From: a virus
Length of the DNA stretch: 40,532 nt
Reading direction: 5' to 3' (one strand)
IMG/VR virus record: IMGVR_UViG_3300010370_000005
Of this stretch, positions 1 to 40,532 are shown one piece after another. The translations under genes and the position numbers were made by a program. The notes beneath the pieces are model-generated. The model made no database searches, was not told the origin of the DNA, and worked only from the letters and a program-made list of their open reading frames with translations. How positions within the stretch are numbered: position 1 is the stretch's first letter; every line of letters starts with the position of its first letter.

Positions 1-123
1 ATACAGTTCACCGTTGTTCTTCAGGTAATAGAAGCAACCGTAGTAGTTCCAACCACCTGAGTAGTATGAACCAGTGTGCACTTCAACGTCGTAAACGTTG
101 GTGGCTCCACTCACAATCTGCGG
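1..123. repeat. Window-end duplication, copy 1 (identical to 40410-40532); closure overlap of a circular or circularly permuted contig
   Basis: Read directly: bases 1-123 (atacagttcaccgttgttcttcagg...cacaatctgcgg) recur exactly at 40410-40532. The repeat lies inside one continuous minus-strand reading frame. Confidence 0.95.
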
Positions 124-25438: not shown

Positions 25439-26278
25439 ATGGCAAATGAAAGAGGAAAAGCAATCGATAAGACATTCCTGTCTGTCGACAACGCTGAGGA
25501 ACGCGGGTTCTTGCACCGTGATTACATCGCCCATTGTCTTCGCTGGACGCACGTCGTCAAGTGGCTGCATCAAGGCGGTCGTTACAAAACGGCTCGGATC
25601 CTAGACGTTGGTTGCGGTAAAGAGATGCCGTTGGCCAAGCTCATGCACTCGTCTCGTCTTGGTCCCCAGTTCTACGCAGCTGCCGACGTCAGCAAATTGT
25701 CAATGCCAGACCAGTTTGCCAAGTCAACTTGGAAACCCAGTCAGTTGCTAGGCGAGTGTGATGCAGCCGTTTTGAAGCCAGAGCAAATAGAGCAGACGCC
25801 AAATACGATCGTCTGTTTTGAAGTTGCCGAACACATTGAACCAGAGCACTGCCGTCGTTTACTGGCCAACTTTGGCAACTTGCTAGAGCCAGAAGGCACC
25901 TTGTTTATCTCAACGCCTTGTTGGGATCCTGATGTAGGAGCCGCTGCGAACCACGTCAACGAGATGACTTACCTTGCTTTTGGCGCTTTGCTAGAAGACG
26001 TAGGTTGGCGTGTTGAAGGTCATTGGGGCACGTTCGCCTCGATGCGCGATTACAAAGACGAGTTGCCACCAGCACACAAGGAGGTGTTTGATGCAATGCG
26101 AGACTACTACGACAGCAACTACTTGGCAACCATTTTCGCGCCGCTTTATCCATCGCGCAGTCGCAATTGTTTGTGGCAGCTTAAGTGGAACCCAGGCGGT
26201 GGCAGACAATTCCCTGATCTACGTGATGTCGAAGGACGTTGGGGTAGTTCAGAGAAGTGGCGAGAGCTTCTTGCTTAA
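25439..26278 (+). CDS. Class I SAM-dependent methyltransferase, small-molecule type (279 aa)
   Basis: Motif I is ARILDVGCGKE. Post-I/II features are VCFEVAEHIEPE and LLEPEGTLFISTP. I saw no DPPY/NPPY and no PCQ...ENV DNA-methyltransferase motifs. Confidence 0.75.
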   Translation: MANERGKAIDKTFLSVDNAEERGFLHRDYIAHCLRWTHVVKWLHQGGRYKTARILDVGCGKEMPLAKLMHSSRLGPQFYAAADVSKLSMPDQFAKSTWKPSQLLGECDAAVLKPEQIEQTPNTIVCFEVAEHIEPEHCRRLLANFGNLLEPEGTLFISTPCWDPDVGAAANHVNEMTYLAFGALLEDVGWRVEGHWGTFASMRDYKDELPPAHKEVFDAMRDYYDSNYLATIFAPLYPSRSRNCLWQLKWNPGGGRQFPDLRDVEGRWGSSEKWRELLA

Positions 26279-26352
26279 TGTAGGTTGGTTTTTGGTGGCG
26301 ATGATCTCATTGATCATCGTCATTTTATGGATTGAAATTAGAAAGGACAAAC

Positions 26353-26715
26353 ATGTGGAACGACATCAAAGCATTTCACGAGAAATTCGGCCTGCAATAC
26401 GACGGGCCGCCAAGGGACTTGCCCAAAGAGTTGGCAAGCTTTCGGATCGGTTTCATCTTTGAGGAACTCGATGAACTCATTGTCGCCGAAAATAAAACCG
26501 ATCAGCTCGACGCGTTGGTGGACCTCTGCTACGTGGTCATGGGCACTGCTTATCTACAAGGCTTCGACTTCCAAGCCGCGTGGGACCGAGTCCATGCTGC
26601 AAACATGGCGAAAGTCCGTGGTCCGTCAGCGCGCAGTCAAGCTTTCGATGTCATCAAGCCCGAGGGCTGGACTGCTCCAGATCTATCGGACCTAGCAGGA
26701 GAAGGCAATGGCTGA
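26353..26715 (+). CDS. MazG-like all-alpha nucleoside triphosphate pyrophosphohydrolase (120 aa)
   Basis: Start refined to MWNDIKAFHEKFG after the SD aaagga. The string RIGFIFEELDELIVAE...QLDALVDLCYVVMGTA...VHAANMAKV fits the EExxE...DxxD metal-binding pattern of phage MazG/HisE-like proteins. Confidence 0.75.
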   Translation: MWNDIKAFHEKFGLQYDGPPRDLPKELASFRIGFIFEELDELIVAENKTDQLDALVDLCYVVMGTAYLQGFDFQAAWDRVHAANMAKVRGPSARSQAFDVIKPEGWTAPDLSDLAGEGNG

Positions 26716-26875
26716 CTACCTCAAGTTTATCGCTGACACTCAAAAGGAAGCTGAGGAAAAGGCTGCTCAACACATCAAGGGTGAGGATCCCATGAGGTCT
26801 CCAGCAATCTACTCGTCTCAGCCCACTGAAAACGGCAAGTGGCTCGTTGTCGTTAAAGTGTGGGGACTTGACTGA
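26708..26875 (+). CDS. Small coupled ORF (55 aa; below the ORF-track cut-off)
   Basis: Its ATG at 26708 overlaps the MazG stop by 8 nt, and its TGA overlaps the next ATG (TGATG). It translates as MADYLKFIADTQKEAEEKAAQHIKGEDPMRSPAIYSSQPTENGKWLVVVKVWGLD. Confidence 0.5.
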   Translation: MADYLKFIADTQKEAEEKAAQHIKGEDPMRSPAIYSSQPTENGKWLVVVKVWGLD

Positions 26876-27876
26876 TGATCTTTATTCTTGAAGGACCTGA
26901 TGGTGTAGGTAAGACTACACTTGCTCAACACATGGCCAAGAAGCTCGGTGCAGTCTATTTGCATTTGAGTTATCGCTGGCCTGATCACATGTTTGAGTAT
27001 CACACAGCAGCCATTCGTTGGGCCATTCGCAAAAGCCGCAAGCAACCTGTCATCATTGATAGGTGGTGGCCAAGTGAAGCCTTGTATGCTGCTGAATATC
27101 GTGGTGGTAGTAAGTGGGCGCACATGGGTCGCATGATGGATCGTGTTGCTCGCAAACATGGTGCAGTCTACGTCTACTGTTTGCCTGAAGACCTTGTCGA
27201 GTACGAAAAACGCTTTGACAAGCTAAAGACAGAACGCGAAGAGATGTACGACAACGTGATGGGTGTTGCTAAACGTTACTTGCACTTGTGGCATGGTGAC
27301 AAGTCGCATGTACCAAACGAGAACTACACTGACTTGCTGCTAAGGACAGGTGGTGTGCACACGCGCGCAGATCACATCAAGTACTCGATTGAAACTTGGG
27401 GTGACAAGCTTGATTTGTTCACAGATTACGCAGTCAATCGTGCAAGTCACTTGTTGTCTTCGCAATTGCCTGACAGTATTGATGAACCTAATTTCCTTGG
27501 TCACATCTCTTCAGCGCAATATCTTATGGTTGGCGAGCGCGTCAATCCTAAGTACAACAACTTGTTTTGGCCTTGGTATGACTATGGTCACTCAAGTCTT
27601 TTCTTAGCTCAAGCGCTGCATCAAGTACCTGCACGCGAAGAACTATTTGTGTGGGCTAACTCAATCAACTTTGATGGCACAAAGAACGACATGATTGAGA
27701 AAGCTTATGGATTTAAACCAACGTTGAAAGTCGTAGCACTTGGCAAGACTGCTTTGACGCACATTACTAAGGCAGGTATTCCAGTGCACGAGCACGTGAA
27801 GCATCCTGCTTTTGTGAGACGCTTTGAAGGTGACGTTGATTACCTGAGAGGAGTATTAAGACATGCTATCCACTAA
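26875..27876 (+). CDS. Fusion protein: N-terminal thymidylate-kinase-like dNMP kinase plus C-terminal uracil-DNA-glycosylase-superfamily (family-4-like) domain (333 aa)
   Basis: Kinase part: IFILEGPDGVGKTT (P-loop) and VIIDRWWPSEALYAAEYRGG (the Tmk DRY/SxxAY region). C-terminal part: YLMVGERVNP (compare LMIVGEGPG), PWYDYGHSSLFLAQAL, VPAREELFVWANSI (compare IPREEVYITNIV), KVVALGKTA and KHPAFVRR (compare FHPAYLLR). Confidence 0.7.
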   Translation: MIFILEGPDGVGKTTLAQHMAKKLGAVYLHLSYRWPDHMFEYHTAAIRWAIRKSRKQPVIIDRWWPSEALYAAEYRGGSKWAHMGRMMDRVARKHGAVYVYCLPEDLVEYEKRFDKLKTEREEMYDNVMGVAKRYLHLWHGDKSHVPNENYTDLLLRTGGVHTRADHIKYSIETWGDKLDLFTDYAVNRASHLLSSQLPDSIDEPNFLGHISSAQYLMVGERVNPKYNNLFWPWYDYGHSSLFLAQALHQVPAREELFVWANSINFDGTKNDMIEKAYGFKPTLKVVALGKTALTHITKAGIPVHEHVKHPAFVRRFEGDVDYLRGVLRHAIH

Positions 27877-28615
27877 TACGCAATGGATTAAAGCACTTGA
27901 GAATGTGCTTGAAACAGGAAAAGTCTCTGCACCACGAGGCATGCCAATCAAAGAGCTCATGGCATACCAAACGTGCACTCCAATGGAGTGGCCTGTTGTA
28001 ACTGTAAAAGAACGAGAGCTTGGCTACAAGTTCATGGCTGCTGAAGCTGCGTGGATCTTGAGTGGCGACAATCGCGTGAGAAGCATTCGTCCATACAGTA
28101 AAGCGATCAGCAACTTCAGTGATGATGGTCATTTCTTTCATGGTGCTTACGGGCCCATGATTCGCGATCAATTGCATTTTGTGATTGATGCTTTGAATGC
28201 TGACAAAGATACAAGGCAAGCGGTCATGACCATTTGGCGTCCAAACCCAAGGCCTAGTAAAGACATCCCATGCACAGTGAGCGTGCAGTTCTTGATTCGT
28301 GATGGGTTGCTGCACGTTGTTGACACCATGCGCAGCAGTGACTTGTGGCTTGGTTGGCCTTACGACATCTTCAACTTCAGCATGCTAGCTCGCTACGTGA
28401 TTTGTCATTTGAAGCAGAAGCCAGAACTTGGAGTCATCGTGCTGCAAGCAGGCAGTGCTCACTTGTATGAACAGAACTGGTTGCCAGCTCAAGCAATCGT
28501 TGGTGGCAAATGCACAGTTGAAGAAACACCCACCATACCTTGGTTTGAGAATGGCGATGATTTAATTGATTGGTTATGGGAGCAAGCTAATGGCAACGGT
28601 ATTCAAAAGACCTGA
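27863..28615 (+). CDS. Thymidylate-synthase-fold pyrimidine-nucleotide C5 transferase, dCMP hydroxymethylase-like (Asp at the uracil/cytosine-discriminating position; 250 aa)
   Basis: IPCTVSVQFLIRDGLLHVVDTMRSSDLWLGWPYD aligns to E. coli ThyA [33 protein letters not shown]. The catalytic Cys, the RS.D motif and the HLY motif are conserved, and Asn177 is replaced by Asp, as in T4 gp42. The SD is gagaggag. Confidence 0.75.
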   Translation: MLSTNTQWIKALENVLETGKVSAPRGMPIKELMAYQTCTPMEWPVVTVKERELGYKFMAAEAAWILSGDNRVRSIRPYSKAISNFSDDGHFFHGAYGPMIRDQLHFVIDALNADKDTRQAVMTIWRPNPRPSKDIPCTVSVQFLIRDGLLHVVDTMRSSDLWLGWPYDIFNFSMLARYVICHLKQKPELGVIVLQAGSAHLYEQNWLPAQAIVGGKCTVEETPTIPWFENGDDLIDWLWEQANGNGIQKT

Positions 28616-29198
28616 TCAAGATGCGTACTTTCTGGCTATGGCAACTCTTGTGTCACTGCGCGCGACGTGTCGCAGACGCCGCGTCGGTTGTGTACTTGTG
28701 GACAGTAATCGTCATGTGCTCGCTACTGGCTATAACGGCGTTGCTCGTGGGCGCGATCACTGCCTTGACCATCCATGTGCTGGCGCTGATTTTAGACCGG
28801 GCCTGGGGTTGGATCAATGCGAAGCGATCCATGCAGAACAGAACGCGATGCTTCAATGCAGAGACACGCAAGCCATCGAGACCGCGTACATTACGGTGAG
28901 TCCATGCATTACATGCGTGAAACTACTAATGAATACCGGCTGCAAACGAATCGTGTTCATAGAACCCTATGCACACAGTCAAGCAGCAGACCTATGGAAA
29001 GGCGAATGGAAACACTATGGAACAGTTGAGCATGTTTATGCCGAACTCAGGTTGGCGTCCGCCAAAGGAGTTCCCGAATTTGACGAACGTCAAGAGGATC
29101 TCTTTGGACTGCGAAACCAGGGATCCACATTTAATAGACCGGGGTCCGGGCGGAGTGAGGTACGACGGGAACGTAGTGGGAGTGAGTCTTGCGACTGA
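28590..29198 (+). CDS. dCMP deaminase (zinc-dependent CDA fold) with a roughly 60-aa C-terminal extension
   Basis: Start refined to MATVFKRPDQDAYFLAMA. The zinc motifs HAEQNA and PCITCVKLL are present. The ORF tail runs 182 nt into the PolA gene in another frame. Confidence 0.8.
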   Translation: MATVFKRPDQDAYFLAMATLVSLRATCRRRRVGCVLVDSNRHVLATGYNGVARGRDHCLDHPCAGADFRPGLGLDQCEAIHAEQNAMLQCRDTQAIETAYITVSPCITCVKLLMNTGCKRIVFIEPYAHSQAADLWKGEWKHYGTVEHVYAELRLASAKGVPEFDERQEDLFGLRNQGSTFNRPGSGRSEVRRERSGSESCD

Positions 29199-30891
29199 AG
29201 ACCAAGCTTGGTATTTTCCTTTTGCGCATGGGGGTGGCGATAACCTTGATAAGAATCAGGTGCTATCTTTCTTGGCTGATGTACTGGCACAACAGACGGA
29301 GAAAATAGGTGCGAATCTCATATACGACCTTGAATGGTTACGTGCAGAAGGCATTCAAGTCAATGGTCCCATACGCGACATCCAAATCGCGGAGCCGCTT
29401 ATTGACGAGAACCAGTCCAGCTACAGCCTCTCGGCGCTTGCTAAGAAGTACCTTGGCGAAGACAAAGATGAAACCCTACTTAGGCAAGCAGCTGTATCTG
29501 CTGGAGTCGACCCAAAAGGTGGACTTTGGAAACTTGCAGCCAGGTACGTTGGTCCCTATGCCGAAGCAGATGCTGCACTCCCTCTCAAGATTTACGACTT
29601 ACAGAAAGAGATCCTAATCAAGGAAGACTTGTGGGACATCTTTACTCTTGAGTCTGATCTTGTCAACATCATGCTTGACATGCGATTCAAGGGCGTGCGC
29701 GTCGACGTCGATAAAGCCGAGGAGCTAAACGACCAAGGCTTAAAAGACGAAGCCAGATTACTCGGCGAACTAAGAGATCTCGTTGGTTACGTGATTGACC
29801 CATGGTCAGGTGACGATCTTGGCAGAGCCTTTAAGAAGTTAAACGTCTGGTACCCTGAGACTGCAAAGGGTAATGCCTCCTTCACTGGCGACTGGTTGGC
29901 TAATCACGAATTGCCAATGCCAAGGAAGGTTGCTGAGTATCGTAAACTAAATAAGATGCGGCGTGACTTTGTTGAAGGCATGGTGTTGAACATGCAGCAC
30001 AGTGGTCGCATTCACTGCCAGTTCCATGCGCTGCGTAAAGACGAGTCAGGAACTAGATCAGGTCGCTTCAGCAGCTCAATGCCTAACTTGCAGCAAGTAC
30101 CTGCTCGTGACGAACATTGGGGTCCATTGATTCGCGGTTTGTTCTTGCCAGACGAAGGCATGCACTGGGCTAGTTGTGATTACAGCCAGCAAGAACCTCG
30201 TATCCTTGTCCACTACGCAGACATCCTTGGTTTGAAAGGCAGCGAAGAAGCAGTCAGAACTTATTCTGAATCTGCTGATACTGACTTCCATCAAATGGTT
30301 GCTGACATGGCTGGCATCAAGCGTAAGCAAGCTAAGACCGTGAACCTTGGTATGTTTTACGGCATGGGTATTTACAAGCTCAGTCAAGAACTAGGTCTTA
30401 GTCAGGCTGAAGCAAAGCCGTTGTTTGAACAGTATCACGACCGGGTTCCATTTGTCAGGCAGCTCAGTCAACGTTGCACGCAGTCAGCAACGCAGAAGGG
30501 ATGGATCAAGACCTTGCTCGGTCGCAAGCGTCACTTCGATCTTTGGGAACCAGCAGACAGCCAGAACACTTGGCCTAATCGCGAAAACCCATTGACCATG
30601 GAACAGGCGAAGAAGGTTTGGCCTGATCGTCCATTGAGAAGGTCGATGACGCATAAAGCTTTGAATGCTTTGATTCAAGGTGGGGCGGCCGACATGACAA
30701 AGAAAGCGATGGTTGACCTGTATAAAGCAGGAGAAATCGCACACATCCAAGTGCACGACGAACTTTGTTTTAGTGTAAGTGATCGGGCACATGGCCAACG
30801 CATTCAGACAATTATGGAAGAGTGTGTTAAAATAGCAGTACCAATCAAGGTCGACTTAGAGATGGGTCCGACCTGGGGCGATAGCAAATAA
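29017..30891 (+). CDS. Family A DNA polymerase with a 3'-5' exonuclease domain (624 aa)
   Basis: Exo I is ISLDCETRD. Motif A is ASCDYSQQEPRIL, motif B is RKQAKTVNLGMFYGMG and motif C is IQVHDELCF. Start taken at MEQLSMF; other in-frame ATGs lie at 28969, 29032 and 29038. Confidence 0.9.
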   Translation: MEQLSMFMPNSGWRPPKEFPNLTNVKRISLDCETRDPHLIDRGPGGVRYDGNVVGVSLATEDQAWYFPFAHGGGDNLDKNQVLSFLADVLAQQTEKIGANLIYDLEWLRAEGIQVNGPIRDIQIAEPLIDENQSSYSLSALAKKYLGEDKDETLLRQAAVSAGVDPKGGLWKLAARYVGPYAEADAALPLKIYDLQKEILIKEDLWDIFTLESDLVNIMLDMRFKGVRVDVDKAEELNDQGLKDEARLLGELRDLVGYVIDPWSGDDLGRAFKKLNVWYPETAKGNASFTGDWLANHELPMPRKVAEYRKLNKMRRDFVEGMVLNMQHSGRIHCQFHALRKDESGTRSGRFSSSMPNLQQVPARDEHWGPLIRGLFLPDEGMHWASCDYSQQEPRILVHYADILGLKGSEEAVRTYSESADTDFHQMVADMAGIKRKQAKTVNLGMFYGMGIYKLSQELGLSQAEAKPLFEQYHDRVPFVRQLSQRCTQSATQKGWIKTLLGRKRHFDLWEPADSQNTWPNRENPLTMEQAKKVWPDRPLRRSMTHKALNALIQGGAADMTKKAMVDLYKAGEIAHIQVHDELCFSVSDRAHGQRIQTIMEECVKIAVPIKVDLEMGPTWGDSK

Positions 30892-31661: not shown

Positions 31662-31985
31662 ATGATGACTGTATTCGTGGTGCAAGAGCCACGCGGAATT
31701 AACCTAATGCCGGCTGAACAGTATGGCGAGCTTAAGGTGCTGTTGCCTCCAGGCAACGTGGCTTACAGTGCTGCGCCCACAGTGGCTAGGTTAAAGCGAG
31801 GACTTGCGAGATTTACTGACAACGATTACCTACTCATGGTTGGCGATCCTGCCGCTATCGCAGTAGCAGGCGCCGTAGCAACGATGCTGAACAATGGACG
31901 CATGAAAGTGCTGAAGTGGGATCGTCAAGAGATGCGGTATTACGTGGTTGAATTTGATCTAATGAGGAGAAGCGATGACTACTGA
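31662..31985 (+). CDS. Hypothetical protein (107 aa)
   Basis: SD aaaggag immediately before ATGATG; no motif recognised. Confidence 0.55.
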   Translation: MMTVFVVQEPRGINLMPAEQYGELKVLLPPGNVAYSAAPTVARLKRGLARFTDNDYLLMVGDPAAIAVAGAVATMLNNGRMKVLKWDRQEMRYYVVEFDLMRRSDDY

Positions 31986-32502
31986 TGTCACACCAGGCGA
32001 CGACAGCCTGAAAGTCGTAGCTGAATTAGCAGCTAAGCAAGTGCAGCTTGAGAAAGAGATAGAGGATTTAGAAGCGCAGTTGAAAGAGAAGACAGAAGCC
32101 TTGTCCCAAGTACAGGAAAAGGATTTACCTGAAGCCATGACTGAGTGCGGCATCAGTGAGTTCAAGCTTGTCGATGGCAGCAAGATTACTGTCAAGCCTT
32201 TCTACCAAGCTAATCCTCCTAAGGAAAAGTACGAAGAAGCCATGCAATGGTTACGCGACAATGGTCATGGAGACTTGATCAAGAACGACGTGACAGTTAG
32301 CTTTGGCAAAGGTGAAGATGCAAATGCCGTGGACTTCAAGACCTTCTTGAAAGACAATGGTACTTCATACACCGACAAGACAGGAGTCCATGCTATGACG
32401 TTCAAAGCGTTTGTGCGTGAACAAGTGGAATCAGGTAGGAACTTGCCCTTCGACCTGTTAGGTATTTACATTGGGCAGAAAGCAACCATCAAGAAAGGAT
32501 AA
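31975..32502 (+). CDS. Hypothetical coiled-coil protein of the recombination/replication module (175 aa)
   Basis: SD aggaga. The N-terminal heptad-rich segment is AELAAKQVQLEKEIEDLEAQLKEKTEAL. The position upstream of the SSB-like gene recalls Gp157-like proteins, but this is weak. Confidence 0.45.
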   Translation: MTTDVTPGDDSLKVVAELAAKQVQLEKEIEDLEAQLKEKTEALSQVQEKDLPEAMTECGISEFKLVDGSKITVKPFYQANPPKEKYEEAMQWLRDNGHGDLIKNDVTVSFGKGEDANAVDFKTFLKDNGTSYTDKTGVHAMTFKAFVREQVESGRNLPFDLLGIYIGQKATIKKG

Positions 32503-32507
32503 CTTAA

Positions 32508-33257
32508 ATGGCAAAGAACGAAGTAGCTGAGAAGAAGCAGGGTGGCGCCCTGGCCGTGATCGATTTTGCAGCAGACGCTGGCATGGGTATGGAGGGAATG
32601 ACTAGCCAAGATATGGCTATTCCTTTCTTCAACATCTTGCAAAAGCTTTCGCCGCAACTAGACACGCTTACAAACGCGAAGGCCGGTATGATCTTCAACA
32701 CCGTGACTGAGGAAGTTTTTAAAGACATCACAGTCATTCCATGCGCTTACAAACGCGAGTTTGTTGAATGGAAACCACGTGAACAAGGTGGCGGTTTGGT
32801 TGGTCAACATGCCATCACGTCTGCTGCTGTAACAGAAGCAAAGAACGTCAATGGTAAGTTAACCACTGCGTCTGGCAACATCCTCGTTGAAACCGCGTAT
32901 CACTTTGTTTTGCGTGTTGAGTTAGATACGGGTCTCATGGAACCTGGTTTGATCACCATGAGCAGCACGCAGCTGAAGAAGAATCGTCGTTGGAATAGCT
33001 TGATGAACAACTTGAAGGTTCAAGGTCCATCAGGTCCTGTTACTCCTGCACGCTTCAGTCACATGTACAAGCTTGGTTCTGTTGCAGAACAGAACGACAA
33101 AGGTGCTTGGTCAGGTTGGACTATCGACATGGTAGGTCCTGTCTCTGAACCAGGTCTTTACCAAGCGGCTCGTGACTTTGCGCAGCAAGTAATGTCAGGT
33201 GCTGTGAAGACAGCAGCTCCTGAAGCTGAGCACACAGGCGAACACAACGCGTTTTAA
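32508..33257 (+). CDS. Possible ssDNA-binding / annealing protein (249 aa)
   Basis: Sits in the replication module. A conserved-looking core is AIPFFNILQKLSP...GMIFNTVT...VIPCAYKREFVEWKPRE. The mildly acidic C-terminus ends in Phe (PEAEHTGEHNAF), reminiscent of SSB tails. The function is an inference. Confidence 0.35.
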   Translation: MAKNEVAEKKQGGALAVIDFAADAGMGMEGMTSQDMAIPFFNILQKLSPQLDTLTNAKAGMIFNTVTEEVFKDITVIPCAYKREFVEWKPREQGGGLVGQHAITSAAVTEAKNVNGKLTTASGNILVETAYHFVLRVELDTGLMEPGLITMSSTQLKKNRRWNSLMNNLKVQGPSGPVTPARFSHMYKLGSVAEQNDKGAWSGWTIDMVGPVSEPGLYQAARDFAQQVMSGAVKTAAPEAEHTGEHNAF

Positions 33258-39677: not shown

Positions 39678-40532
39678 TTATGGGTTTATGACCATGAAGC
39701 GGCCGTTGAAACCGGCGTCACTTGAAAATTCGCCTTCGCCGTTGCTGCCCATGTGCAAGACTCGACCGTCAGACATCAAGAATTGCAAGTTAAAGCTTGA
39801 GCCATACGGGTACGCAGAAGCGCGGTAATCAACAATGGTTTGGTGTACGCCGCAGGCCGAACCATCTTCAGAGGCCCAAGGTCCTGGCAGCAAGACAGGG
39901 CGGCTATATGAAACGGTTGTATTGTCGCTGCGGTAAGTACCCATGTTCACACCGTAGCCTAGCAAGTACATGCGTCCGGTTGAGTCTTGCACCATCCACC
40001 CGGTTCCCGCTTCACTGTAAACGTAGGGGAAGATACGAGTAATTGAACCTCTTGGAAACACGCGGTCACTGTTGGTCGTTACCCCTGCGATGTAGGTAAA
40101 AGTCCTATTGCGAGTCGTGTCGCAAATAGCCCCTGGTTGCGTAGGACTTGACGAGTTAGTCGTCGTGCCGTTACCAAATTGACCGTTGCCGTTGTAACCC
40201 CAGCAGTACAAGTTGCCGGGAAAGCTAACGTACGGCGCAGTACCTAAGAAGGTGTCTGGGTTACCCTCAATGGCGGCGACCGTTACGTACTGAGAACAAC
40301 CGTTTACGTAGAACTCAGCAAAGGTTTGCGAGGTTCCGCAGCGCACAAAAGCGCTTTGGTTTGTTGTGTTGCCGTTACCAAGGTTGCCGTATGGGTTGTA
40401 ACCGCAACCATACAGTTCACCGTTGTTCTTCAGGTAATAGAAGCAACCGTAGTAGTTCCAACCACCTGAGTAGTATGAACCAGTGTGCACTTCAACGTCG
40501 TAAACGTTGGTGGCTCCACTCACAATCTGCGG
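39678..40532 (-). CDS. Tail fibre with RCC1-like repeats, C-terminal part (same gene as 1-1269; 40410-40532 duplicates 1-123)
   Basis: Open frame with blades CGYNPYGNLGNGNTT and WGYNGNGQFGNGTTT, stop at 39678. The track M at 40523 is an internal GTG, not a real start. Confidence 0.85.
   Translation of the reverse strand, partial: PQIVSGATNVYDVEVHTGSYYSGGWNYYGCFYYLKNNGELYGCGYNPYGNLGNGNTTNQSAFVRCGTSQTFAEFYVNGCSQYVTVAAIEGNPDTFLGTAPYVSFPGNLYCWGYNGNGQFGNGTTTNSSSPTQPGAICDTTRNRTFTYIAGVTTNSDRVFPRGSITRIFPYVYSEAGTGWMVQDSTGRMYLLGYGVNMGTYRSDNTTVSYSRPVLLPGPWASEDGSACGVHQTIVDYRASAYPYGSSFNLQFLMSDGRVLHMGSNGEGEFSSDAGFNGRFMVINP
40410..40532. repeat. Window-end duplication, copy 2 (identical to 1-123)
   Basis: Exact 123-nt match to the window start. 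Confidence 0.95.

What the first reader, a model, noticed from the sequence alone, without database searches (positions are those of the whole stretch)
26875..27876. Unusual single-polypeptide fusion of a thymidylate-kinase-like domain with a UDG-superfamily domain
The N-terminal roughly 200 aa carry the Tmk signatures LEGPDGVGKTT and DRWWPSEALYA. The C-terminal roughly 130 aa match family-4 UDG block by block. These blocks are LMVGE, PW..G...L....L, VPAREELFVWAN, VVALGK and HPAFVRR. They retain the Glu, Asn and His positions used by UDGs but lack the Fe-S cysteines. A nucleotide kinase covalently linked to a DNA-glycosylase fold is not a standard architecture. Several roles are possible. It might couple synthesis of a modified dNDP with excision of unmodified or deaminated bases. 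It might bind the modified base. Or it might perform base exchange or pyrophosphorylase-like chemistry on DNA. UDG-like domains are known to accompany phages with modified pyrimidines: family-4 UDGs were historically annotated as SPO1 DNA-polymerase-related.
Basis: partly seen in the sequence, partly recalled or inferred. Interest (0 to 1): 0.8.

Follow-up and report, generated by a model that had tools for sequence, protein, structure and literature searches.

The report
Nucleotide kinase fused to mini-UDG domain
One phage gene really does encode a nucleotide kinase fused to a stripped-down uracil-DNA-glycosylase-type domain; it sits in a conserved gene cassette that most likely replaces cytosine with 5-hydroxymethylcytosine in the phage DNA, and what the glycosylase-like half does is still unknown.

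Summary
ORF 26875..27876 (+) is an intact 333-aa protein. Its N-terminal half is a YorR/Tmk-like P-loop nucleotide kinase. Its C-terminal ~130 aa form a cysteine-free, four-strand UDG-superfamily domain, closest to family-4 UDG and UdgX, and the acid, aromatic, Asn and His-Pro pocket positions are conserved.

The fusion is not a one-off. More than 75 IMG/VR loci, over 180 protein clusters, and the cultured phages AXL3, PW916, Bacillus phage G and DSL-LC01 carry it.

The kinase resembles the 5-hmdU DNA kinase (5-HMUDK) M6 gp54 only in the P-loop, and aGPT-Pplases have a different fold.

The gene sits in a fixed cassette: SAM-methyltransferase, MazG-like hydrolase, kinase/UDG, thymidylate-synthase homologue, dCMP deaminase, PolA. 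All 72 adjacent TS homologues carry the published dCMP-hydroxymethylase signature (ThyA N177D, L143D, D169 kept). AXL3 DNA resists every restriction enzyme tested whose site contains G/C.

Best reading: the N-domain is a T4 gp1-like kinase for 5-hydroxymethyl-dCMP, and the C-domain is a DNA-directed mini-UDG, probably excising U or hmU. The C-domain also exists alone beside gp32/RecA genes and persists in variants whose kinase motifs are dead. Its activity is inferred, not shown.

The parts
26875..27876 (+). Complete ORF (333 aa plus stop) encoding the kinase / mini-UDG fusion protein
   Evidence: Homologues. AF2 model pLDDT 95.8, pTM 0.93.
26875..27459 (+). N-terminal P-loop nucleotide-kinase domain (res 1-195), YorR/Tmk-like
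   Evidence: Profile vs PDB: YorR 2axp/3kb2, E 1.1e-10 over 145 residues. Foldseek TMt 0.72-0.74. phrog_761 'thymidylate kinase' 4.9e-14.
26893..26916 (+). Walker A / P-loop GPDGVGKT (res 7-14)
   Evidence: G7, G12 and K13 are invariant in 134 unique homologues. Coordinates.
27058..27078 (+). DRWWPSE motif (res 62-68), the counterpart of the Tmk DR(Y/F/H) motif
   Evidence: D62 and R63 are invariant; W65, S67 and E68 are >=95% conserved.
27490..27873 (+). C-terminal Fe-S-less mini-UDG domain (res 206-333) with a four-strand parallel sheet
   Evidence: Domain-only AF2 model pLDDT 92.9. Foldseek top 29 hits are all UDG family 4 / UdgX. hhalign to the stand-alone mini-UDG family: prob 99.9%, E 5.6e-31.
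27529..27552 (+). Motif-A equivalent VGERVNPK (res 219-226). The acidic residue 221 aligns with the Glu of family-4 GE(A/G)PG
   Evidence: G220 is 98% conserved and position 221 is Asp or Glu in 133 of 134 sequences. The HMMER alignment to T. maritima UDG places VGE on VGd.
27568..27576 (+). WPW (res 232-234), equivalent to the PF base-stacking aromatic of family-4 UDG
   Evidence: P233 is invariant and position 234 is Phe or Trp in 131 of 134 sequences. Aligned to the PF of TmUDG.
27652..27660 (+). WAN (res 260-262), Asn at the uracil-recognition position on strand beta2
   Evidence: N262 is conserved in 124 of 134 sequences and is Asp in 6. Aligned to the Asn of TmUDG 'YICN'.
27736..27753 (+). 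ALGKTA (res 288-293), the loop after beta3 (Gly-Ser-loop equivalent)
   Evidence: G290 is conserved in 133 of 134 sequences and A293 in 114 of 134.
27802..27825 (+). Motif-B equivalent HPAFVRRF (res 310-317), His-Pro followed by a basic/aromatic loop
   Evidence: H310 is 98% conserved, P311 100%, R316 92% and F317 94%. Stand-alone relatives have an invariant HPQYWKRF.
27863..28615 (+). Thymidylate-synthase homologue, overlapping the fusion ORF by 14 nt. Predicted dCMP 5-hydroxymethylase
   Evidence: Best PDB match is MilA CMP hydroxymethylase, 1.4e-21. ThyA positions are L143D, N177D, D169 and C146 here and in all 72 syntenic homologues. The rule is taken from PMC13326640. Control: M6 gp58 has D143/N177.
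28566..29198 (+). dCMP/dCTP-deaminase-family protein (longest ORF; the true start may lie a little downstream)
   Evidence: Pfam dCMP_cyt_deam_1 2.1e-21 and MafB19-deam. PDB dCMP deaminases 3.7e-20. Syntenic in 65 loci.
26332..26715 (+). MazG-like (PRA-PH) nucleotide pyrophosphohydrolase, a candidate dCTPase/dUTPase
   Evidence: Pfam PRA-PH 2.7e-13. Best PDB hit is DR2231. Syntenic in 74 loci.
25439..26278 (+). SAM-dependent methyltransferase (Methyltransf_23), first gene of the cassette and a possible tailoring enzyme
   Evidence: Pfam 1.8e-12. Syntenic in 74 loci. Xp15 has a carbamoyltransferase in the same slot, and phage G has a glucosyltransferase two genes upstream of its fusion.
28969..30891 (+). 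Family-A DNA polymerase with 3'-5' exonuclease, immediately downstream of the cassette
   Evidence: Pfam DNA_pol_A 8.7e-66 and exo 4.5e-10. Syntenic in 58 loci.

Best explanation
The gene encodes a bifunctional protein belonging to a pre-replicative cytosine-replacement pathway of the T4 type.

Inferred pathway. The MazG-like hydrolase converts dCTP (and dUTP) to the monophosphate. The thymidylate-synthase homologue converts dCMP to 5-hydroxymethyl-dCMP. The N-terminal YorR/Tmk-like kinase domain of this protein phosphorylates that non-canonical monophosphate to the diphosphate, which is the job of T4 gp1. Host NDP kinase and the phage PolA then put the modified base into DNA. The deaminase balances the T/U branch, and the SAM-methyltransferase may tailor the base further.

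The C-terminal domain is a minimal UDG-superfamily module without an Fe-S cluster. It keeps the pocket residues (acid of motif A, stacking aromatic, Asn, His-Pro of motif B) and the basic loop that follows them. It most likely flips a pyrimidine out of phage DNA and excises uracil-type bases (U or 5-hmU). Such bases are the expected by-products of a cassette that contains a cytidine deaminase. The domain would be delivered in fixed 1:1 stoichiometry with the kinase at the site of dNTP synthesis and replication.

Shown: the architecture, the fold, residue conservation, cassette synteny and the TS active-site signature. Inferred: the kinase substrate, glycosylase activity and its target base, and the reason for the fusion.
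For: Architecture and fold.

Cassette. The order MTase-MazG-fusion-TS-deaminase-PolA recurs in most of the 80 IMG/VR loci; AXL3 has MTase to deaminase in the same order and DSL-LC01 has the fusion-to-PolA part.

TS signature. TS homologues carry D143/D177/D169/C146 in 72 of 72 loci, and also in AXL3, DSL-LC01, phage G, Xp15 and L094. The best PDB hit is MilA. Published rules state that N177D means a dCMP substrate, L143D/E a hydroxymethyl product, and D169N a 5-hydroxy product (PMC13326640). The control M6 gp58, a dUMP hydroxymethylase, shows D143/N177.

Experimental context. AXL3 DNA resists all 35 tested restriction enzymes whose sites contain G/C and is cut only by the two enzymes with A/T-only sites; AXL3 also has a separate ThyX (PMC7504290). 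Neighbourhoods of deaminase + TS + PRA-PH + PolA are enriched on metavirome contigs with modified cytosine (bioRxiv 10.1101/2024.12.05.627091; eLife PMC8670742).

Kinase role. YorR/Tmk-like 'nucleotide kinases' sit beside cytosine-specific TS homologues in DLP3, RB69 and RL38J1 (PMC13326640). No other nucleotide-kinase candidate turned up among the window ORFs I scanned, which were the replication and nucleotide-metabolism genes only.

C-domain conservation. Pocket residues are conserved at >=92% across 134 sequences that are only 32-76% identical overall.

C-domain as an autonomous module. A stand-alone ~150-aa family is clearly homologous (hhalign 99.9%, E 5.6e-31). In the two members whose neighbourhoods I examined, the gene lies directly upstream of gp32 SSB and RecA/UvsX-like genes. 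The domain is also retained in variants whose N-domain has lost Walker A and the DR motif, one of them sitting next to a genuine Tmk.

Source of lesions and precedent. Phage deaminases from such cassettes deaminate 5m/5hm-dCTP and 5mC/5hmC in ssDNA. Phages with modified pyrimidines are known to fuse an active UDG to PolA (bioRxiv 10.1101/2025.03.26.645540).
Against: No enzymatic activity has been measured for any member of this family.

The domain is much smaller than characterised UDGs (about 130 aa vs about 200 aa). It lacks the Fe-S region, and motif A is only partly canonical (G-[DE]-x-x-N-P rather than GE(A/G)PG), so catalysis could be lost.

The C-domain is dispensable in some cassettes: L028, L081, P0110/L083 and Xp15 gp37 are kinase-only and show no remnant of it.

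Its presence does not track the deaminase. L040, L048, L051 and L062 have the fusion with no deaminase within 7 kb, while the kinase-only cassettes do have a deaminase.

The C-domain pI is about neutral (median 6.9), which gives no support for DNA binding.

Pseudokinase variants show that the protein's conserved role cannot be nucleotide phosphorylation alone.

The hydroxymethyl-versus-methyl call for the TS homologue rests on a published residue rule, not on an assay. The MazG-like enzyme may already remove dUTP (DR2231-like), which would lessen the need for a UDG.
Confidence: 0.45

Rival explanations
1. The C-domain is a non-catalytic relic. On this view it is a pyrimidine/DNA-binding or protein-docking module that tethers the kinase to the TS homologue, the replisome or DNA. 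Poxvirus D4 UDG, which serves as a polymerase processivity subunit, is the model. It would give substrate channelling rather than base excision.
For: The fusion gene's stop overlaps the TS start by 14 nt, and the fusion lies directly upstream of the TS homologue in almost every locus. The two domains form a rigid unit (pTM 0.93). Pseudokinase variants keep the scaffold next to the TS homologue. Kinase-only cassettes exist, so the domain is an accessory. Motif A is non-canonical.
Against: A pure docking role does not require near-invariance of exactly the catalytic and pocket positions (D/E221, F/W234, N262, H310-P311). The stand-alone homologues have no kinase to tether, and the two examined sit beside gp32/RecA genes.
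Confidence: 0.27
2. The C-domain is a glycosylase with a new specificity that enforces base replacement. It would excise unmodified cytosine (or another canonical base) from DNA, so that host DNA and any under-modified phage DNA are destroyed. This would be the functional counterpart of T4 endonucleases II and IV.
For: The domain is tied to a cytosine-replacement cassette in phages with small genomes, and I recognised no homologue of the T4 C-DNA nucleases among the window ORFs I scanned. UDG-fold enzymes can be retuned to cytosine by changing the Asn; this rests on established knowledge (human UNG N204D), not on a test here. Six of 134 homologues have Asp at position 262.
Against: Asn, the uracil-type reader, is kept in 92% of sequences. 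Nothing here links the stand-alone relatives to a cytosine-replacement cassette: in RsoM2USA the mini-UDG lies far from that phage's TS homologue. No activity data exist.
Confidence: 0.1
3. The two domains work together on DNA. The UDG-like domain flips 5-hydroxymethylcytosine out of the helix and the kinase domain phosphorylates its hydroxymethyl group. That would be a cytosine counterpart of the 5-hmdU DNA kinases, creating a leaving group for further tailoring.
For: The domains are covalently linked and rigidly packed. The cassette contains a tailoring-type enzyme (the MTase) of unknown substrate. There is precedent for base-directed DNA kinases and for multi-domain fusions of them (PMC8989533).
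Against: Orthologous kinases at 50-63% identity work without the C-domain in the same cassette. Similarity to the 5-HMUDK M6 gp54 is limited to the P-loop. Among the ORFs scanned, the pathway would then lack any phage kinase for 5-hm-dCMP. Pseudokinase variants keep the C-domain.
Confidence: 0.05
4. Nothing unusual is going on. On this view the cassette is ordinary dTTP supply (dCMP deaminase, thymidylate synthase, thymidylate kinase), a housekeeping uracil-repair domain happens to be attached, and the DNA is unmodified.
For: This is how AXL3, PW916, phage G and DSL-LC01 are annotated and discussed. The P-loop and DR motif resemble Tmk.
Against: The TS homologue has Asp rather than Asn at the pyrimidine-specificity position in every locus. 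AXL3 and L094 carry a separate ThyX, and L094 also carries a true Tmk, next to the cassette. AXL3 DNA is refractory to all enzymes with G/C-containing sites. dTMP-kinase model scores are far below the cut-offs.
Confidence: 0.06

Closest known systems
Family-4 uracil-DNA glycosylases and UdgX (T. maritima 1L9G, T. thermophilus 1UI1, M. smegmatis UdgX 6AIL/6IOD)
   Same: They share the alpha/beta UDG fold with four parallel strands and are the top structural matches. The order of motifs is the same: the 'G.G' hairpin, G-[E/D] motif A, P-F, Asn on beta2, L-G-x-x-A, then H-P-[SA]...R.
   Different: The domain is about 130 aa rather than about 200 aa. It has no 4Fe-4S cysteines; the window's domain has no cysteine at all. 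Motif A is G-[DE]-x-x-N-P-K rather than GE(A/G)PG. It lacks UdgX's KRRIH loop. It is fused to a kinase. Sequence-model scores are below the Pfam threshold. Activity is unknown.
Bacillus prophage SPbeta YorR (PDB 2AXP/3KB2) and the 'nucleotide kinases' beside cytosine-specific TS homologues in phages DLP3 (gp78), RB69 (gp45) and RL38J1 (gp214)
   Same: YorR is the best sequence and structure match for the N-domain. The genomic logic is the same: a YorR/Tmk-like kinase sits next to a MilA-like TS homologue (PMC13326640).
   Different: Those kinases are single-domain (~170 aa). Their substrates are also unproven.
T4 gp1 dNMP kinase within the T4 hmC pathway (gp42, gp1, gp56, cd)
   Same: The proposed role is the same: phosphorylating 5-hm-dCMP made by a TS-homologous dCMP hydroxymethylase, alongside a dCTPase and a dCMP deaminase. 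This rests on established T4 biochemistry and on PMC13326640.
   Different: It is a different kinase family. T4 gp1 (1DEK/1DEL) appears neither in the PDB sequence hits nor among the 50 Foldseek PDB hits listed. T4 has no UDG-like partner.
Stand-alone phage mini-UDG proteins (~150 aa; e.g. Ralstonia phage RsoM2USA_394, clusters P0121-P0144)
   Same: They are clearly homologous to the C-domain (hhalign 99.9%, E 5.6e-31, 128 columns) and have the same motifs and the same lack of an Fe-S signature.
   Different: They are not fused. The two examined are encoded directly upstream of gp32 SSB and RecA/UvsX-like genes in large phages. They are uncharacterised and have no PHROG or curated Pfam family.
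UDG fused to family-A DNA polymerase in SP-15/YerA41-like phages with hypermodified thymidine (bioRxiv 10.1101/2025.03.26.645540)
   Same: This is a precedent for hard-wiring a UDG module to another replication or nucleotide enzyme in phages that have modified pyrimidines, a dCTP deaminase and a TS homologue.
   Different: There the partner is the polymerase and the UDG is reported to be active. Here the partner is a nucleotide kinase and activity is unknown.
5-hmdU DNA kinases (5-HMUDK, e.g. M6 gp54) with aGPT-Pplase/AADT partners
   Same: Both involve P-loop kinases in phage base-modification clusters, and fusions of 5-HMUDK to other modification enzymes are known (PMC8989533).
   Different: Only the P-loop aligns. 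The partners are HhH-fold proteins, not UDG-fold. Those clusters use dUMP hydroxymethylases with Asn177 (M6 gp58), whereas this cassette has Asp177.

Membership tests
UDG superfamily (fold level) | Alpha/beta fold with a four-strand parallel sheet, recognisable by structure comparison with solved UDGs | tested here: met
   With the domain-only model, the top 29 Foldseek PDB hits are UDGs, prob 1.0, TMq 0.57-0.73. With the full-length model, UdgX hits have E ~1e-3.
UDG superfamily (fold level) | Motif A (water-activating loop after beta1) and motif B (His-Pro after beta4) flanking a pocket with an aromatic and an Asn | tested here: met
   Conservation in 134 sequences: G220 98%, D/E221 99%, F/W234 98%, N262 92.5%, H310 98%, P311 100%. 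Alignment to TmUDG.
UDG superfamily (fold level) | Score above the Pfam PF03167 gathering threshold | tested here: not met
   The window protein has no PF03167 hit at E<=0.1. Only 4 of 64 homologues and 18 of 20 stand-alone relatives give sub-threshold hits.
Family-4 UDG (UDGa) sensu stricto | Four conserved cysteines ligating a 4Fe-4S cluster | tested here: not met
   The window's domain has no cysteine, and no cysteine column is conserved in the family.
Family-4 UDG (UDGa) sensu stricto | Motif A with the sequence GE(A/G)PG | tested here: not met
   The sequence is VGERVNPK and the family consensus is VG[DE]xxNPK. Only the G-[DE] pair is retained.
Family-4 UDG (UDGa) sensu stricto | Excision of uracil from ss and ds DNA | not testable with these tools
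   This needs an enzyme assay.
Thymidylate kinase (Tmk; PF02223 / TIGR00041) | P-loop plus DR(Y/F/H) motif | tested here: met
   GPDGVGKT and DRW are present; K13, D62 and R63 are invariant.
Thymidylate kinase (Tmk; PF02223 / TIGR00041) | Whole-domain score at or above the curated cut-off | tested here: not met
   PF02223 scores 19.5 bits against a cut-off of 27, matching residues 5-28 only. TIGR00041 scores 28.5 bits against 83.25.
Thymidylate kinase (Tmk; PF02223 / TIGR00041) | dTMP as the physiological substrate | not testable with these tools
   Context argues against it: the adjacent TS homologue is cytosine-specific, and a separate true Tmk sits next to the pseudokinase variant in L094.
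5-hmdU DNA kinase (5-HMUDK) | Homology to M6 gp54, ViI gp67 or phiW-14 gp37 beyond the P-loop | tested here: not met
   hhalign of A1 against M6 gp54 aligns 28 columns (the P-loop only) at 69% probability.
5-hmdU DNA kinase (5-HMUDK) | Co-occurrence with a dUMP hydroxymethylase (Asn177) and with aGPT-Pplase/AADT genes | tested here: not met
   The TS homologue has Asp177 in 72 of 72 loci. No aGPT-Pplase Pfam hit occurs in the cassette genes.
aGPT-Pplase / amino-acid:DNA transferase | Helix-hairpin-helix DNA-glycosylase-like fold | tested here: not met
   The C-domain has the UDG alpha/beta fold. The family's fold is taken from PMC8989533.
T4 gp1-type dNMP kinase | Sequence or structure homology to T4 gp1 (1DEK/1DEL) | tested here: not met
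   gp1 is absent from the PDB sequence hits at E<=10 and from the 50 Foldseek PDB hits listed. The resemblance is functional only.
Phage stand-alone mini-UDG family (uncurated; A3) | Profile-profile homology over the whole domain with the shared motifs G[DE], PF, W.N, LG..A and HP.y..RF | tested here: met
   hhalign of A2 against A3: 99.9% probability, E 5.6e-31, 128 columns. Alignments.

The most novel reading that the evidence does not exclude
The C-domain is the smallest known functional UDG-fold enzyme (about 125 aa, no Fe-S cluster) and has a new job. It would act as a base-replacement 'enforcer' or proof-reader, physically coupled to the modified-dCMP kinase. It would flip and remove unmodified or deaminated pyrimidines (C, U, hmU), so that only fully 5-hmC-derived DNA survives. 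In the most extreme form, it would present 5-hmC in DNA to the attached kinase for base phosphorylation, making it a cytosine analogue of the 5-hmdU DNA kinases.
Probability: 0.12. Interest if true: 0.85.

Novelty: new variant of a known kind. Interest (0 to 1): 0.6.

Why it matters
Cytosine-replacement cassettes of this type are widespread in environmental phages. They have already yielded useful enzymes, namely 5hmC carbamoyltransferase and 5mC-selective deaminases. The kinase/mini-UDG gene at the centre of the cassette has been overlooked because curated models see only a P-loop, and cultured-phage genomes label it 'thymidylate kinase'.

This analysis makes three things directly testable.
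- The gene partners a dCMP hydroxymethylase, not a thymidylate synthase.
- Its C-terminal half belongs to an uncurated, Fe-S-free mini-UDG family that also exists on its own next to SSB/recombinase genes.
- That half is retained even when the kinase is dead.

If the domain is active, it would be a compact new glycosylase, possibly with specificity for hmU or for unmodified bases. That would matter for understanding how phages keep fully substituted genomes clean, and for sequencing and epigenetics tools. If it is inactive, it would be a new example of a UDG fold recruited as a scaffold in a dNTP-synthesis complex. Either way, phages AXL3, PW916, G and DSL-LC01 need re-annotation and become predicted carriers of 5-hmC-derived DNA.

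Tried and rejected
1. Frameshift or two-gene artefact: rejected. Hundreds of homologues have the same length, and the model is one rigid two-domain unit.

2. aGPT-Pplase-like transferase for the C-domain: rejected on fold, HhH vs UDG.

3. 5-HMUDK membership for the N-domain: rejected, since only the P-loop aligns.

4. 5-hydroxy-dCMP synthase as the identity of the neighbouring TS homologue: rejected, because D169 is retained rather than changed to Asn.

5. MilB/nucleoside-deoxyribosyltransferase-like N-glycosidase, by analogy with the MilA/MilB pair: no such fold appears among the 50 listed structural hits.

6. Correlation between presence of the C-domain and presence of the deaminase or MTase: none found.

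7. Isoelectric point as a hint of DNA binding: uninformative.

8. Direct PDB sequence search with the single protein: only P-loop and spurious HMG-box hits.

9. Megablast of 20 kb of the window against cultured phages: no match.

10. Most 'short' hits in the representative search proved to be N-terminally truncated gene calls of the fusion, not true stand-alone domains. The genuine stand-alone family was found through RsoM2USA_394.


Full report
**1. The observation**

The window holds an intact ATG-initiated ORF at 26875..27876 (+) encoding 333 aa. The window itself is a complete, circularly permuted phage genome of about 40.4 kb; its two ends repeat 123 nt. It has no close relative among cultured phages at the DNA level.

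**2. Is it a real two-domain protein?**

A search of 5.8 billion protein clusters returned 175 relatives. Most are 315-370 aa and align over the full length at 32-93% identity. A scan of IMG/VR gave 80 loci. Of 79 related genes detected there, 77 match both an N-domain and a C-domain profile. AlphaFold2 with a 64-sequence alignment gave a single compact model with mean pLDDT 95.8 and pTM 0.93. A frameshift or assembly artefact is therefore excluded.

**3. N-terminal domain**

The profile of the family matches the SPbeta prophage kinase YorR (2AXP/3KB2) at E 1.1e-10 over 145 residues. Foldseek ranks YorR first (TM 0.72-0.74 relative to the target), followed by other small-molecule P-loop kinases, among them APS, shikimate, thymidylate, deoxyadenosine and guanylate kinases.

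Walker A (G7, G12, K13) and the DR motif (D62, R63) are invariant in 134 unique sequences. So is a set of Arg, Glu and Tyr residues expected for an NMP kinase.

It is not a bona fide Tmk by curated models. PF02223 gives 19.5 bits on residues 5-28 against a cut-off of 27. TIGR00041 gives 28.5 bits against 83.25.

It is not a 5-hmdU DNA kinase. Against M6 gp54, which is the experimentally proven 5-HMUDK (PMC8989533), only 28 P-loop columns align at 69% probability.

**4. C-terminal domain**

The full-length model already hits UdgX with probability 1.0. A domain-only model (pLDDT 92.9) gives a clean result. The top 29 PDB hits are all family-4 UDG (T. maritima 1L9G at E 1.2e-5 and TMq 0.73; T. 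thermophilus 1UI1), UdgX or BdiUNG. The next, unrelated fold appears only at E>0.03.

Sequence profiles agree, but weakly. Family-4 UDGs are found at E 0.14-2, aligned from motif A through the PF and the Asn. Pfam UDG is hit below threshold by 4 of 64 fusion proteins.

Pocket positions are strongly conserved across sequences that share only about a third of their residues:
- G220, 98%
- Asp/Glu221, 133 of 134
- P233, 100%
- Phe/Trp234, 98%
- N262, 92.5%
- G290, 99%
- H310, 98%, and P311, 100%
- R316 and F317, over 92%

The four Fe-S cysteines of family 4 are absent. The domain is about 70 residues shorter than characterised UDGs, and motif A reads VG[DE]xxNPK rather than GE(A/G)PG. It is best described as a distinct, Fe-S-less 'mini-UDG' branch nearest to family 4, not as a member of family 4.

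**5. The domain exists on its own**

A tblastn search with the domain found Ralstonia jumbo phage RsoM2USA_394 (152 aa). Its relatives form a family of ~150-aa proteins carrying the same motif series: G[ED], PF, W.N, LG..A and an invariant HPQYWKRF.

Profile-profile comparison with the C-domain gives 99.9% probability, E 5.6e-31, over 128 columns. Eighteen of 20 members touch Pfam UDG below threshold, and none has a PHROG. For the two members whose contigs I examined, the gene lies directly upstream of gp32 single-strand-binding protein and a RecA/UvsX-like recombinase. That is a DNA-transaction context.

An exhaustive HMMER pass over 1.84 billion representatives found only 263 clusters at E<=1e-3. 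This is a modest-sized family, and every member whose genomic context I examined lies on a phage genome or viral contig.

**6. Genomic context**

This is where the interpretation changes. The gene sits in a cassette, all on one strand with overlapping or abutting ORFs:
- Methyltransf_23 SAM-methyltransferase (25439..26278)
- PRA-PH/MazG-like pyrophosphohydrolase (26332..26715)
- the fusion (26875..27876)
- thymidylate-synthase homologue (27863..28615)
- dCMP-deaminase-family protein (28566..29198)
- family-A DNA polymerase (28969..30891)

The same order recurs in the IMG/VR loci. MTase is found in 74, MazG in 74, TS in 71, deaminase in 65 and PolA in 58; most absences are at contig ends. Stenotrophomonas phage AXL3 has the MTase-to-deaminase part in the same order. 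Related arrangements occur in Actinomycetia phage DSL-LC01 and the 497-kb Bacillus phage G.

The TS homologue's best solved relative is MilA, a CMP hydroxymethylase (E 1.4e-21, against about 1e-12 to 1e-14 for true thymidylate synthases). Aligned to E. coli ThyA (sequence supplied from memory, with residue numbering checked), all 72 syntenic homologues have C146, D169, L143->Asp and N177->Asp. The same holds for AXL3, DSL-LC01, phage G, Xp15 and L094.

Published work gives these positions meaning (PMC13326640; bioRxiv 10.1101/2024.12.05.627091):
- N177D switches the substrate from dUMP to dCMP.
- L143D/E goes with a hydroxymethyl rather than a methyl product.
- D169N marks 5-hydroxy-dCMP synthases.

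As a control, the dUMP hydroxymethylase of phage M6 shows D143 with N177. The neighbour is therefore predicted to be a dCMP 5-hydroxymethylase.

Independent experimental context fits. AXL3 DNA was refractory to all 35 tested restriction enzymes whose sites contain G/C and was cut only by TasI and Tru1I, whose sites are A/T-only. AXL3 also carries a separate ThyX for real dTMP synthesis (PMC7504290). In metaviromes, deaminase + TS + PRA-PH + PolA neighbourhoods are strongly enriched on contigs selected for modified cytosine (PMC8670742).

**7. Variants that constrain function**

(a) Kinase-only cassettes exist. L028 has an N-domain 63% identical to the window's, with the TS gene starting right after the kinase core and no remnant of the C-domain. 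Other examples are L081, the 198-aa P0110 (L083) and Xp15 gp37, which is mis-annotated as a DNA polymerase subunit. So the kinase works without the C-domain, and the C-domain is an accessory.

(b) Conversely, a divergent branch keeps the C-domain motifs but has lost Walker A and the DR motif in the N-domain. Members include P0174, P0178, P0187, P0191, P0208, P0228 and others. In the one context available, this pseudokinase/mini-UDG gene lies between a genuine Tmk (with ThyX upstream) and a D143/D177 TS homologue. So the C-domain is under selection independently of kinase catalysis, and the protein's partnership with the TS homologue persists.

(c) The gene in the slot upstream of MazG differs between phages. 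It is a SAM-MTase here and in AXL3, and a carbamoyltransferase in Xp15. Phage G has an alpha-glucosyltransferase two genes upstream of its fusion. This is consistent with a common 5-hmC core decorated in different ways.

**8. Most likely mechanism**

Shown: the architecture, fold, conservation, synteny and the TS signature.

Inferred: the cassette is a T4-like pre-replicative route. MazG turns dCTP into dCMP. The TS homologue makes 5-hm-dCMP. The N-domain makes 5-hm-dCDP, doing what gp1 does in T4. Host NDK and the phage PolA complete incorporation.

Three points support the kinase assignment. No other nucleotide-kinase candidate turned up among the window ORFs I scanned, which were the replication and nucleotide-metabolism genes only. 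Host kinases are known not to serve hm-dCMP well; that is established T4 biochemistry and the rationale for co-expressing gp1. YorR/Tmk-like kinases recur beside cytosine-specific TS homologues in other phages.

For the C-domain, the conserved pocket, the basic/aromatic loop after His-Pro and the stand-alone relatives next to SSB/recombinase genes point to a DNA-directed, base-flipping module. With Asn retained at the recognition position, uracil-type bases (U, 5-hmU) are the most likely targets. The cassette's own deaminase family is documented to deaminate 5m/5hm-dCTP and 5mC/5hmC in single-stranded DNA, which would create exactly such bases. There is also precedent for UDG hard-wired to PolA in phages with modified pyrimidines.

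I put about 0.45 on this combined statement. By component:
- about 0.95 for the architecture
- about 0.8 for the cytosine pathway
- about 0.7 for the hm-dCMP kinase role
- about 0.35-0.4 for true glycosylase activity on U/hmU

**9. Rivals**

- A non-catalytic docking or binding role (0.27). It is favoured by the tight gene overlap with the TS homologue, the rigid two-domain unit and the pseudokinase variants. It is disfavoured by conservation of precisely the catalytic positions and by the stand-alone family.
- A new-specificity glycosylase that destroys C-containing DNA (0.10).
- A DNA-level 5-hmC kinase that uses the UDG domain for base flipping (0.05). It is disfavoured by the kinase-only orthologues and by the lack of 5-HMUDK homology.
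- An ordinary dTTP-supply cassette with a repair domain (0.06). It is contradicted by the TS signature, the separate ThyX/Tmk genes and the AXL3 restriction data.

Evidence against my preferred reading:
- Presence of the C-domain does not track presence of the deaminase.
- Its pI is neutral.
- Motif A is non-canonical.
- No member has been assayed.

**10. Comparison with the known, and novelty**

The parts belong to known kinds: a P-loop NMP kinase, the UDG superfamily and a T4-type hmC pathway. New elements:
- the kinase/UDG fusion itself; my literature searches found no description, and GenBank records call it 'thymidylate kinase'
- recognition of an uncurated, Fe-S-free mini-UDG family
- its systematic coupling to dCMP hydroxymethylase cassettes
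- the pseudokinase branch

I rate it a new variant of a known kind, with interest 0.6. It is a concrete, testable lead in a field that is actively mining exactly these cassettes, but its biochemical meaning is still open.

Noticed in passing
window 25439..26278 (+): The SAM-dependent methyltransferase (Methyltransf_23) is conserved as the first gene of the cassette in 74 loci. In Xp15 the same slot holds a carbamoyltransferase of the class shown to act on 5hmC; phage G has an alpha-glucosyltransferase two genes upstream of its fusion. Its weak nearest curated models are O-methyltransferases (UbiG, Hen1), and it has no PDB relative. It may O-methylate 5-hmC, which would be a modification not yet described.
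   Followed up: partly
window 27863..28615 (+) and 72 related loci: The gene annotated as 'thymidylate synthase' in AXL3, DSL-LC01, phage G and Xp15 carries ThyA L143D/N177D with D169 kept. That is the signature of a dCMP hydroxymethylase, so these cultured phages are predicted to carry 5-hmC-derived DNA.
   Followed up: yes
proteins P0174, P0178, P0187, P0191, P0208, P0228, P0224, P0233, P0235, P0236; locus L094 2752-3648: This branch of the family has an N-domain that has lost Walker A (no GK[ST]) and the DR motif but keeps all the mini-UDG motifs. In L094 it sits between a genuine Tmk (with ThyX upstream) and a D143/D177 TS homologue.
   Followed up: partly
L087 4932-5390 (Ralstonia phage RsoM2USA_394); L088-L091: A stand-alone ~150-aa mini-UDG family has an invariant HPQYWKRFRSKE motif. 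In the two contigs examined it is encoded immediately upstream of gp32 SSB and RecA/UvsX-like genes in large phages. It has no PHROG or curated Pfam family.
   Followed up: partly
L092 4522-5004 (Xanthomonas phage Xp15 gp37): This gene is annotated 'putative DNA polymerase subunit' but is a 160-aa P-loop kinase related to the N-domain. It lies in a cassette of carbamoyltransferase, MazG-like hydrolase, kinase, TS homologue and deaminase.
   Followed up: yes
L093 1917-2912 (Bacillus phage G gp315) and L086 4401-5396 (Actinomycetia phage DSL-LC01): Both are annotated 'thymidylate kinase' and both are kinase/mini-UDG fusions near a dCMP deaminase and a D143/D177 TS homologue. Phage G also has an alpha-glucosyltransferase two genes away, which suggests glucosyl-hmC.
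   Followed up: partly
L082 11686-12249 (Pseudomonas phage M6 gp54): The RefSeq record labels this gene 'terminase small subunit', although it is the experimentally characterised 5-hmdU DNA kinase (PMC8989533).
   Followed up: no
window 1..123 and 40410..40532: The first and last 123 nt are identical, so the window is a complete, circularly closed (or terminally redundant) phage genome of about 40.4 kb.
   Followed up: yes
window 26332..26715 (+): The MazG-like hydrolase's best solved relative is Deinococcus DR2231, which from memory is a dUTP-specific MazG-type enzyme. It may therefore clear dUTP as well as dCTP, like T4 gp56.
   Followed up: no
window 26708..26875 (+): A 55-aa ORF lies between MazG and the fusion gene, and its stop overlaps the fusion's ATG (TGATG). 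It is detectable only in the three closest loci and has no family match.
   Followed up: partly
window 28566..29198 and 28969..30891 (+): The longest ORFs of the deaminase and PolA overlap by about 230 nt, here and in many related loci. The true PolA start is probably downstream, or the deaminase's C-terminal tail is not real.
   Followed up: no
window 31662..33257 (+): Three consecutive genes match the Pfam families Pam3 gp32-like, gp33-like (DUF7307) and gp34-like. This links the replication module to that of cyanophage Pam3. The same families follow the cassette in L083.
   Followed up: no
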